In this document: piece by piece, positions 49,119 through 49,357 of the stretch
Position numbering within the stretch: the stretch's first letter is position 1
Layout: each line of letters begins with the position of its first letter
Virus record (IMG/VR): IMGVR_UViG_3300017783_000031
Location: 1-52,600 of that record
DNA: 52,600 nucleotides
Source: a virus
Taxonomy: Duplodnaviria; Caudoviricetes
Strand: one strand, 5' to 3'
Notes under the pieces: model-generated
What the model was told of the DNA's origin: nothing
Database searches by the model: none
The model's input: only the letters and a program-made list of their open reading frames with translations
Made by a program: the position numbers and the translations under genes

Positions 49119-49137
49119 AGTGTTTAATTTAATTTAG

Positions 49138-49213
49138 TGGACGTGGGAGGAGTTGAACCTCCGTTTGTTGATAGTGTACTTTTGAACTTTGTCAACACTT
49201 ACCCGTCACGCCC
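49138..49213 (-). ncRNA. tRNA-like small RNA resembling an isolated tmRNA tRNA-like domain (76 nt)
   Basis: Acceptor stem GGGCGTG/CACGTCC with a G3.U pair and discriminator A; perfect T-arm GGAGG-TTCAACT-CCTCC; no D-stem; central helix TGTTGA/TCAACA; no canonical anticodon arm. Confidence 0.7.
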
Positions 49214-49215
49214 GT

Positions 49216-49357
49216 AGCCGAAGGCACAGCACATTACCTGTCTTTTTAACTAGTATATATTGCTCGTCAGCATTCCTTCGGTGCCGTTAATAATGTAAAG
49301 ACCTCACCGCCGGTTTTATTTACCCCTGCAGAGGTACGACGGTTTTTTGGTCTTACA
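49216..49357 (-). ncRNA. Two additional structured intergenic RNA elements
   Basis: ccgaagg/ccttcgg closing helix (49218-49281); nested helices gtaagacc/ggtctttac, accgtcg/cggcggt, tacctc/ggggta (49296-49356), with G-U pairs on the - strand. Confidence 0.45.

What the first reader, a model, noticed from the sequence alone, without database searches (positions are those of the whole stretch)
49138..49213. Minimal tmRNA tRNA-like-domain RNA lacking the mRNA-like domain
Seen (- strand): GGGCGTG AC GGGTAAG TGTTGA CAAAGTTCAAAAGTACACTA TCAACA AAC GGAGG TTCAACT CCTCC CACGTCC A (followed by CTA). It has a 7-bp acceptor stem with a G3.U wobble and discriminator A, a perfect T arm, an unpaired D region and one irregular helix in place of an anticodon arm. 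Known: G3.U70 is the AlaRS identity element, and an unpaired D loop with a GGGnnTGAnnGG..TTGAC start is characteristic of tmRNA 5' ends. Inference: a 76-nt TLD-only RNA in the early region. It could sequester SmpB/EF-Tu, rescue ribosomes without tagging, or act as a decoy for host tRNA-targeting defence nucleases. CCA is not encoded.
Basis: partly seen in the sequence, partly recalled or inferred. Interest (0 to 1): 0.75.

Follow-up and report, generated by a model that had tools for sequence, protein, structure and literature searches.

The report
Tag-less mini-tmRNA gene in phage
An uncultured marine phage carries a conserved 76-base gene for only the alanine-accepting, tRNA-shaped head of the bacterial ribosome-rescue RNA (tmRNA), a rarely described phage RNA type that probably interferes with or bypasses the host's tagging of stalled proteins.

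Summary
Window 49138-49213 (- strand) reads exactly as written. It is a real RNA gene. I found 18 distinct variants in uncultured marine phage contigs. They keep the fold in 99.7% of pair cells, and 11 of 18 pairs show compensatory changes. G3:U70 is kept in 18 of 18, across three different acceptor stems.

ARAGORN and Rfam at curated thresholds miss it. Its best Rfam match is tmRNA, ends only (31.1 bits, cut-off 47). The tRNA model gives 16.0 bits against a cut-off of 29.

The architecture equals the 'TLD only' tmRNA of mycobacteriophage DS6A. A distant cultured relative, Cellulophaga phage phi38:1, carries a full-length tmRNA with the same A-CUA end. So this is a new member of a known but barely studied kind. 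This scan has already noted such mini-tmRNAs on other DNA.

Function is inferred. The RNA is probably cut out like a tRNA, alanylated, bound by SmpB, and competes with host tmRNA.

One twist: the apical loop is a swappable module that also occurs free-standing. Expression, CCA addition, charging and SmpB binding are untested.

The parts
49207..49213 (-). Acceptor stem, 5' strand GGGCGTG (RNA positions 1-7). G3 forms the G.U wobble.
   Evidence: Pairs 1-7 are 100% paired in 18 sequences, and 3 of 7 pairs show double changes. G3:U is kept in 18 of 18.
49198..49206 (-). Unpaired D region ACGGGTAAG (positions 8-16). It has A8 rather than the U8 of the Rfam tRNA consensus, and no D stem.
   Evidence: It is identical in the 5 relatives found through a neighbouring protein, without any RNA pattern. 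In all other loci it was fixed by my search patterns.
49192..49197 (-). Central helix, 5' strand TGTTGA (positions 17-22). It sits where a tRNA has its anticodon stem and a tmRNA has helix P2.
   Evidence: All 6 pairs show double-sided changes. Variant pairs TGCTGA/TCAGCA, TGTTAA/TTAACA, TGCAAA/TTTGCA, TGTTAC/GTAACA, ATTAAAGC/GCTTTAAT and TAAGCC/GGCTTA are.
49172..49191 (-). 20-nt apical loop CAAAGTTCAAAAGTACACTA (positions 23-42), a swappable module.
   Evidence: Other loops or longer inserts replace it in L030, L026, L015, L002 and L038. The same loop sits on a free-standing hairpin in L026.
49166..49171 (-). Central helix, 3' strand TCAACA (positions 43-48).
49163..49165 (-). Junction AAC (positions 49-51) before the T arm.
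   Evidence: It was not fixed by the patterns and is invariant in 16 of 16 sequences. Rfam aligns the AC to the tmRNA consensus AC before its T arm.
49146..49162 (-). T arm GGAGG TTCAACT CCTCC (positions 52-68).
   Evidence: The stem was mostly fixed by my patterns. With the freer pattern, 2 of 5 pairs show double changes: L070 has GUAGG/CCUAC and L067 has GGCGG/CCGCC.
49139..49145 (-). Acceptor stem, 3' strand CACGTCC (positions 69-75). The T at position 73 (window 49141) pairs with G3 (tRNA numbering U70).
49138..49138 (-). Discriminator A (tRNA numbering A73).
   Evidence: Constant in 18 of 18 sequences.
49135..49137 (-). 3' trailer CTA. CCA is not encoded.
   Evidence: The same CTA trailer follows the tRNA-Met gene of relative L004, the full-length tmRNA of phage phi38:1 and the DS6A TLD.

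Best explanation
This is a phage gene for a tag-less, TLD-only mini-tmRNA.

Shown here:
- A conserved 76-nt RNA with a 7-bp acceptor stem carrying G3:U70 and A73.
- A canonical T arm.
- A stemless 9-nt D region.
- One covarying helix whose loop is variable.
- It lies between small leftward genes of a marine podophage whose terminase is closest to phages of Flavobacteriia.

Inferred course of events:
1. It is transcribed with its neighbours and cut out by RNase P and a 3' tRNA-processing enzyme.
2. It receives CCA, like the tRNA-Met gene that abuts it in relatives.
3. Host alanyl-tRNA synthetase charges it through G3:U70/A73.
4. Its D region and elbow bind host SmpB.
5. The complex competes with host tmRNA at stalled ribosomes.

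The net effect would be less ssrA tagging during infection. This could come from titrating SmpB, which I favour, or from accepting the nascent chain without offering a tag template.
For: - Family match. The only Rfam match in the window at E<=1 is tmRNA, 31.1 bits. It aligns model positions 1-18 and 345-374 and replaces 326 positions by 39 nt. The tRNA model gives 16.0 bits.
- Alanine mark. G3:U70 and A73 are kept in 18 of 18 sequences, although the acceptor stem comes in three versions: GGGCGUG, GGGGACG and GGGGGCG.
- Strong constraint. The window and L004 RNAs are 72/76 identical, while the two flanking proteins are 48% and 59% identical.
- Same build as DS6A 'TLD only'. That RNA has acceptor G3:U70, a stemless D loop, a 5-bp helix with a 20-nt loop, a T arm and an A-CUA end, and scores 43.2 bits on RF00023. 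PMC4131195 (passages read) says a similar molecule, chargeable or not, strongly inhibits tmRNA, perhaps by titrating SmpB.
- Peptidyl transfer to a TLD-only tmRNA is reported in vitro (Shimizu and Ueda 2006, as cited in PMC3895274; passage read).
- Relatives. Cellulophaga phage phi38:1 (terminase 36% identical) has a full-length tmRNA of 87.6 bits that starts GGGGGCGACUGGU and ends ACUA. PMC8776804 reports one tmRNA gene in the related phage Calle.
- tRNA-gene context. tRNA-Met(CAT) starts 2 nt after the RNA in 3 of 32 distinct contexts (L004, L018, L044) and has the same CTA trailer.
Against: - It is below the Rfam tmRNA cut-off (31.1 against 47), and ARAGORN calls nothing.
- The D region has 9 nt, against 13 positions between the acceptor stem and P2 in the Rfam consensus. 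It lacks the UUCGAC motif whose G is needed for SmpB binding in E. coli (PMC8363625, passage read).
- Two loci with the same D region, L069 and L071, have C3-G70, so the alanine mark is not universal.
- The apical loop is itself conserved and occurs without the TLD in L026. The L002 insert occurs without it in L008. This points to a function in the loop.
- The window encodes no SmpB.
- There is no evidence of a discrete RNA, of CCA addition, of charging or of SmpB binding. RNA-library contigs only show presence inside longer contigs of relatives.
- D-region and T-arm invariance is largely forced by my search patterns.
Confidence: 0.55

Rival explanations
1. Natural tRNA-like carrier. The functional part is the apical hairpin module, which would be a protein-binding or pairing site. 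The tRNA-shaped frame only provides precise excision by tRNA-processing enzymes, CCA and stability. The conserved 5' and 3' halves also serve as recombination anchors for swapping modules.
For: - At least five different middles sit on the same frame.
- Window and L002 share about 170 nt of upstream DNA with 1 mismatch, yet the RNA middle is exchanged for a longer insert.
- The main 20-nt loop sits on a free-standing long hairpin next to the TLD of L026 (z -3.38).
- The L002 insert core is free-standing in L008.
- The main loop is nearly invariant in sequence.
Against: - A carrier does not need G3:U70 kept across three different acceptor stems, nor a stemless D region with A8.
- I found no target for the loop. 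Only 1 other site in the window has up to 3 mismatches, which is chance level, and there is no convincing complementary arm nearby.
- DS6A and the full tmRNA in phi38:1 tie the frame to tmRNA.
Confidence: 0.2
2. Alanine-accepting tRNA mimic with a role outside ribosome rescue. It could be a decoy or sponge for a host defence factor that senses or cuts tRNA. It could also be an alanine donor for a non-ribosomal transferase.
For: It has the G3:U70/A73 identity set and tRNA size and shape. It sits in an early-type gene block next to a phage tRNA in relatives.
Against: - It has no anticodon loop, so it cannot mimic the usual target of anticodon nucleases.
- No transferase or defence-related gene was seen among the 10 larger neighbouring proteins scanned.
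- The tmRNA model scores higher than the tRNA model.
Confidence: 0.1
3. Pure processing signal. A tRNA-like punctuation mark at which RNase P and 3' enzymes cut the polycistronic transcript, separating upstream from downstream messages. The released RNA has no function.
For: It lies between two genes on the same strand, 19 nt before the next start codon. tRNA-like excision is plausible from the acceptor and T arm.
Against: Punctuation needs neither G3:U70, nor an invariant D region, nor a conserved loop. About 95% RNA identity against 48-59% identity in the flanking proteins is far more constraint than a cut site needs.
Confidence: 0.08
4. Remnant. It is either a decayed tRNA or tmRNA gene, or the copy of a host ssrA 3' end that temperate phages carry as an attachment site.
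For: Phages often integrate at ssrA and carry its 3' end (stated in PMC9004378, passage read). The 3' half resembles tmRNA.
Against: - Compensatory changes and near-identity across diverged phages exclude decay.
- The RNA includes the 5' acceptor strand, which an attachment site does not need.
- The 25-nt 3' half occurs in 1 of 185,579 species genomes scanned, on an 11.8-kb MAG contig that carries the same phage genes.
Confidence: 0.03

Closest known systems
'TLD only' (CDS-less) tmRNA of Mycobacterium phage DS6A (tmRNA Website entry cited in PMC4131195 and PMC11915505; JN698994 28478-28560)
   Same: - It is phage-borne and about 80 nt long.
- 7-bp acceptor stem with G3:U70, and A73 followed by CUA.
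- Stemless D loop.
- One short helix capped by a 20-nt loop.
- Canonical T arm, with no tag frame and no pseudoknots.
- It also falls below the Rfam tmRNA cut-off and is not annotated in its record.
   Different: - The host phylum and phage lineage are unrelated.
- The DS6A D loop has 14 nt and keeps GUCGAC. Here it has 9 nt (ACGGGUAAG) without that motif.
- DS6A scores 43.2 bits and this RNA 31.1.
- This family shows exchangeable apical modules and sits in a cluster of other structured RNAs.
Full-length phage tmRNA of Cellulophaga phage phi38:1 / Calle (Rfam RF00023; PMC8776804)
   Same: The phages infect Flavobacteriia and have a related terminase (36% identity). The TLD has G3:U70, the D region starts GAC.GGU, and the 3' end is A-CUA without encoded CCA.
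   Different: The phi38:1 RNA is 362 nt long. It has helix P2, pseudoknot regions and a predicted tag frame (ARAGORN), and scores 87.6 bits. The window RNA has none of these. The flanking small proteins show no similarity.
CDS-less organellar tmRNAs (about 65-bp plastid forms of Mallomonadaceae in PMC11915505; mt-tmRNA, Rfam RF02544)
   Same: tmRNA reduced to the tRNA-like domain.
   Different: They are organellar and evolved by reduction. The RF02544 model gives no match here at E<=10.
Canonical tRNA-Ala (Rfam RF00005)
   Same: The G3:U70 and A73 identity set, the T arm, a total length of 76 nt, and tRNA-gene-like context and trailer.
   Different: It has no D stem, A8 instead of U8, and no 7-nt anticodon loop or anticodon. 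RF00005 gives 16.0 bits (cut-off 29) and ARAGORN finds nothing.
D-armless tRNA-like RNA at the head of the tRNA cluster of Tenacibaculum phage Gundel_1 (NC_062747 73061-73132)
   Same: Acceptor stem, unpaired stretch, a 4-bp helix with a 17-nt loop, and a T arm. It is in a Flavobacteriia phage.
   Different: It has G3-C70, so no alanine mark. It scores 27.8 bits on the tRNA model and 24.2 bits on my model.

Membership tests
tmRNA (ssrA, Rfam RF00023) | 7-bp acceptor stem with G3:U70 and discriminator A73 | tested here: met
   G3:U70 in 18 of 18 sequences.
tmRNA (ssrA, Rfam RF00023) | T arm with a 5-bp stem and 7-nt loop, preceded by AC | tested here: met
   The Rfam alignment covers it with posterior marks of '*'.
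tmRNA (ssrA, Rfam RF00023) | D region without a D stem | tested here: met
   Positions 8-16 are unpaired in the covariation-supported structure.
tmRNA (ssrA, Rfam RF00023) | D-loop UUCGAC motif with the G needed for SmpB binding (PMC8363625) | tested here: not met
   Rfam deletes 8 D-loop positions. The window's TTGAC lies in the variable helix. Whether G16 substitutes for that G is only my guess.
tmRNA (ssrA, Rfam RF00023) | mRNA-like domain with resume codon, tag frame and stop | tested here: not met
   39 nt stand in for 326 model positions. There is no other tmRNA piece in the window at E<=1.
tmRNA (ssrA, Rfam RF00023) | Pseudoknots PK1-PK4 and long helix P2 | tested here: not met
   There is only one 6-bp helix.
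tmRNA (ssrA, Rfam RF00023) | Curated score cut-off and detection by ARAGORN | tested here: not met
   31.1 bits against 47. ARAGORN finds 0 genes.
tmRNA (ssrA, Rfam RF00023) | Alanylation by AlaRS, and binding of SmpB and EF-Tu | not testable with these tools
   This needs biochemistry.
TLD-only (CDS-less) phage tmRNA, DS6A type | A complete TLD (acceptor with G3:U70, stemless D region, T arm) joined by one short helix, with no tag frame, about 65-85 nt | tested here: met
   Compared side by side with DS6A and with the window.
TLD-only (CDS-less) phage tmRNA, DS6A type | Inhibits host trans-translation | not testable with these tools
   Reported for 'a similar molecule' (Mao et al. 2009, as cited in PMC4131195). 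The 2009 paper itself is not held.
Canonical tRNA (Rfam RF00005) | Cloverleaf with D arm and anticodon arm, and a score over the cut-off | tested here: not met
   16.0 bits against 29. ARAGORN finds 0 genes.
mt-tmRNA (Rfam RF02544) | Match to the model | tested here: not met
   No match at E<=10 among 26 candidates scored.

The most novel reading that the evidence does not exclude
The tRNA-like frame is a natural display and delivery vehicle. Phages mount interchangeable small RNA modules on an alanine-accepting, SmpB-type scaffold and swap them by recombination between the conserved halves. The scaffold would give each module tRNA-style processing and stability, and perhaps access to the SmpB/EF-Tu/ribosome path. 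That would make the locus a modular RNA toolkit rather than a single anti-tagging RNA.
Probability: 0.15. Interest if true: 0.8.

Novelty: new member of a known kind. Interest (0 to 1): 0.55.

Why it matters
Phage tmRNAs are recorded in about 2% of phage genomes (PMC9004378, passage read). In the papers I could search, the tag-less form appears in print for one phage only, DS6A.

This case shows a whole family of the tag-less form in abundant marine phages of a different host phylum. Standard annotation misses it: ARAGORN, Rfam cut-offs and GenBank records. If these RNAs damp or bypass ssrA tagging, then control of host ribosome rescue is a common early phage strategy.

The family offers a compact natural tool, 76 nt long, to probe SmpB recognition with a much shorter D loop. 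The swappable loop modules, if functional, would be a natural counterpart of engineered tRNA scaffolds.

Tried and rejected
Searches that found nothing:
- ARAGORN on the window and on 16 relatives' loci found no tRNA or tmRNA at the element.
- Rfam at gathering thresholds found nothing in the window.
- blastn of 1.1 kb around the element against 50,697 phage records found no match. No cultured phage in that collection carries this sequence.
- My model R1 on five cultured relatives (MW202828, elemoA, phi19:3, phi38:1, Gundel_1) gave only weak hits of 24.2 bits or less. Where I checked them, they were ordinary tRNAs, the phi38:1 tmRNA and the Gundel tRNA-like RNA.
- mt-tmRNA model: none. SmpB domain in the window: none.
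- A second, separate tag-coding piece: none by Rfam at E<=1.
- A target or antisense partner of the apical loop: chance level.
- Promoter and terminator scan: at shuffle level. Its one 'terminator' is the T arm read on the wrong strand.

Readings rejected:
- Hammerhead reading of the upstream CUGACGA. L038 has CCGACGG with a compensating change, and Rfam finds nothing.
- Tag-frame reading of the upstream linker. The putative stop varies (TAA, TAT, TAG) and L038 differs throughout.

Loci set aside:
- L003 (A3-U70, encoded CCA, 31 bits) and L014/L068 (T-arm minihelices in G/T-rich repeats) were set aside as not of this family.
- L069/L071 were left out of the pair counts because they score 32-34 bits. 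I report them as evidence against.

Sequencing runs:
- 6 of 21 listed runs are RNA libraries with small shares.
- Four were laid, and all are kept as contigs. Contigs of relatives cover 49128-49292 in three of them.
- No starts, ends or CCA can be read from contigs, and DNA carry-over is not excluded. I draw nothing from uncovered parts.

Papers not seen:
- Mao et al. 2009 is not held.
- Supplements were not opened. The tmRNA database tables behind PMC11915505 might already list related marine phage entries.

Full report
**The observation**

- a 7-bp acceptor stem GGGCGTG/CACGTCC with a G.T wobble at the third pair
- nine unpaired letters, ACGGGTAAG
- a perfect 6-bp helix TGTTGA/TCAACA around a 20-nt loop
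- the junction AAC
- a T arm GGAGG-TTCAACT-CCTCC
- discriminator A, followed by CTA rather than CCA

The total is 76 nt, the size of a tRNA. ARAGORN finds no tRNA or tmRNA anywhere in the window, and Rfam at curated thresholds finds nothing.

At relaxed thresholds the only match in the whole 52.6-kb window is tmRNA RF00023, at 31.1 bits and E 7.8e-9 against a cut-off of 47. That alignment uses only the two ends of the model, namely the acceptor stem, the first D-loop letters, the AC junction, the T arm and the tail. It bridges 326 model positions with 39 nt. The tRNA model reaches 16.0 bits against a cut-off of 29, and the mitochondrial tmRNA model gives nothing. The single-sequence fold is only modestly better than shuffles (z -2.29).

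**Where it lies**

The window is one virus record, estimated 83% complete. Its terminase is 63% identical to that of an uncultured podovirus. It is 46% identical to Flavobacterium 'elemo' phages, 36% to Cellulophaga phages phi19:3 and phi38:1, and 33% to Tenacibaculum phage Gundel_1. The host is therefore probably a member of the Flavobacteriia; this is an inference.

The RNA sits in a leftward block of small genes together with these functions:
- ribonucleotide reductase
- thymidylate synthase
- primase-helicase
- a sigma-like factor
- a DnaA-type helix-turn-helix protein

The RNA ends 19 nt before the next start codon. No SmpB domain is encoded in the window.

**Relatives and conservation**

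A search through the upstream neighbouring protein used no RNA information and gave 9 loci.
- 5 carry the RNA with an identical D region (L002/L005, L004, L006, L009, L010).
- 3 lack it (L007, L008, L012).
- 1 ends before the site (L011).

Pattern scans added 8 viral and 31 metagenome stretches, plus 1 contig among 185,579 species genomes. That contig is an 11.8-kb MAG contig carrying the same phage genes. A covariance model built from 16 distinct sequences finds full-length matches of 71 bits or more in 40 of 46 sources. A freer pattern added L067 and L070.

On the 18 distinct sequences:
- 99.7% of pair cells are standard pairs.
- 11 of 18 pairs change on both sides: all 6 of the central helix, 3 of the acceptor stem and 2 of the T stem.
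- No shuffle of 500 reaches any observed measure.
- Sliding the partner gives 44-58% paired.

G3:U70 is kept in 18 of 18 sequences, although the acceptor stem occurs as GGGCGUG, GGGGACG (L015) and GGGGGCG (L067). The window and L004 RNAs are 72/76 identical, while the two flanking proteins are 48% and 59% identical.

Three caveats apply:
- My patterns fixed the D region and most of the T arm, so their invariance is informative only for the five loci found by protein.
- The alignment was fitted to the model.
- Many sequences are close relatives.

**What speaks for a tmRNA head rather than a tRNA**

- The model scores favour tmRNA over tRNA.
- The RNA has A8 where the Rfam tRNA consensus has U8.
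- It has no D stem.
- It has the same AC junction before the T arm as the tmRNA consensus.

Two comparisons place it.

First, mycobacteriophage DS6A carries what the tmRNA Website curators call a 'TLD only' tmRNA (PMC4131195, passages read; PMC11915505, passage read). I located it at JN698994 28478-28560, where it scores 43.2 bits, also under the cut-off, and is unannotated. It has the same build: acceptor stem with G3:U70, stemless D loop, a 5-bp helix with a 20-nt loop, a T arm and an A-CUA end.

Second, Cellulophaga phage phi38:1 carries a full-length tmRNA of 87.6 bits. ARAGORN predicts a tag for it. It begins GGGGGCGACUGGU and ends ACUA. Its record annotates a hypothetical protein on the other strand instead. 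PMC8776804 lists one tmRNA gene in the related phage Calle. The window RNA therefore looks like the reduced end of a series that exists in phages of this host group.

**What speaks against, or complicates**

- The D region has 9 nt and lacks the UUCGAC motif. In E. coli the G of that motif is needed for SmpB binding, and SmpB Trp122 sits in a pocket formed by A15, U17 and A334 (PMC8363625, passages read).
- L069 and L071 share the D region, acceptor-T architecture and size but have C3-G70.
- The middle of the RNA is modular.
  - Five or more different loops or inserts occupy the same frame.
  - Window and L002 share about 170 nt of upstream DNA with one mismatch but differ in the RNA middle.
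  - The main 20-nt loop sits on a free-standing hairpin beside the TLD of L026.
  - The core of the L002 insert is free-standing in L008, which has no TLD.

So the loop may have a function of its own.

**Maturation and expression**

In 3 of 32 distinct contexts (L004, L018, L044) a tRNA-Met(CAT) gene starts 2 nt after the RNA. It has the same CTA trailer. This fits processing by the tRNA pathway and CCA addition after trimming; that step is inferred.

Public RNA libraries gave only assembled contigs. In three of the four libraries laid, contigs of related phages cover 49128-49292 inside longer pieces. This shows presence in RNA libraries. It shows neither a discrete RNA, nor its ends, nor CCA.

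**Mechanism I commit to (confidence 0.55)**

The RNA is excised like a tRNA, gets CCA, is alanylated through G3:U70/A73, binds host SmpB and competes with host tmRNA.

- Titration of SmpB is favoured. PMC4131195 reports that a similar molecule inhibits tmRNA whether or not it can be charged, and the C3-G70 relatives keep the rest of the design.
- Tag-less acceptance of the nascent chain is possible as well, because peptidyl transfer to a TLD-only tmRNA is reported in vitro (cited in PMC3895274).

Rivals:
- a tRNA-like carrier for the loop modules (0.2)
- an alanine-accepting mimic with a role outside rescue (0.1)
- a bare processing signal (0.08)
- a remnant or attachment site (0.03)

The last is contradicted by covariation and by the absence of the 3' half from bacterial genomes.

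**Novelty**

The kind is in print for one phage and for organelles. My four literature searches found no description of such RNAs in Flavobacteriia or marine podophages. Supplements and the tmRNA database itself could not be checked.

This scan's own earlier notes list many phage 'mini-tmRNA' findings on other DNA, including one in a marine flavobacterial phage with several RNAs back to back. These are unchecked AI notes that agree with my reading, and they came after it.

I file the RNA as a new member of a known kind. Its particular features are a very short D region, exchangeable loop modules and a surrounding cluster of other structured RNAs.

Noticed in passing
window 49218-49281 (- strand), 4 nt upstream of the RNA: A second conserved structured RNA. 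It has a closing helix CCGRAGG/CCUYCGG, a hairpin UGCY-GACG-RGCA and a hairpin RCAG...CUGY. Each shows compensatory changes among 13 distinct variants. Rfam finds no match. Some relatives have it and others lack it, with the TLD directly after a gene.
   Followed up: partly
window 49298-49357 (- strand): A further upstream non-coding block (ACCGTCGTACCTC ... GGTGAGGTC) shared with L006, L007 and L008. Its complementary segments are in crossing order, so it may be a pseudoknot. One RNA-library contig covers it.
   Followed up: no
L004:615-688; also L018, L044, L007:3268-3341, L008:3522-3595, L070:6284-6357: A phage tRNA-Met(CAT) with an A1.A72 mismatch and three G-C pairs at the foot of the anticodon stem, so it looks like an initiator. 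It lies 2 nt after the mini-tmRNA in three relatives and is absent from the window.
   Followed up: partly
L002:1256-1314 and L008:3440-3510: A module of about 44 nt (GGGGAGGCGATGTAAC...TGAAC). It has a hairpin whose GUUCA loop is complementary to the downstream UGAAC, so it may be a pseudoknot. It is inserted in the TLD of L002 and free-standing before tRNA-Met in L008.
   Followed up: partly
L026:1598-1672 (- strand): A free-standing long hairpin (z -3.38) that carries the same 20-nt apical loop as the main mini-tmRNA type. It lies directly upstream of a TLD that has a different loop.
   Followed up: partly
L009, L025, L030, L038, just downstream of the RNA: Another shared non-coding block starting ATAGGGAAAAGTCTGGAAGCCGAAAGG. 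L008 has a similar start before its module. The locus behaves as an island of small RNAs.
   Followed up: no
NC_021796 (Cellulophaga phage phi38:1) 26803-27164, L061:1501-1862 (-): A full-length tmRNA (87.6 bits, with an ARAGORN tag frame) is not annotated in the record. A hypothetical protein, gp041, is annotated on the opposite strand inside it.
   Followed up: partly
NC_062747 (Tenacibaculum phage Gundel_1) 73061-73132, L057:1501-1572: A D-armless tRNA-like RNA with G3-C70 at the head of the tRNA cluster. It is just under the tRNA cut-off (27.8 bits) and ARAGORN does not call it.
   Followed up: partly
L069:7256-7333 and L071:2132-2210 (- strand): Relatives with the same D region and architecture but with C3-G70 and a different T stem. 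They may be a non-alanine branch of the family, in other phages.
   Followed up: partly
L003:6422-6486: A contig of high G+C with an RNA of about 62 nt. It has an acceptor stem with A3-U70, a T arm identical to the window's and an encoded CCA.
   Followed up: no
L014:2540-2700 and L068:6590-6820: Repeated T-arm minihelices (a short stem plus GGTTCGACTCC-type T arm) embedded in G/T-rich repeats of two other viral contigs.
   Followed up: no
L051 (contig of a MAG labelled Rickettsiales): The 11.8-kb contig carries the same phage genes and the mini-tmRNA. It is probably a phage contig binned with a bacterial genome.
   Followed up: no
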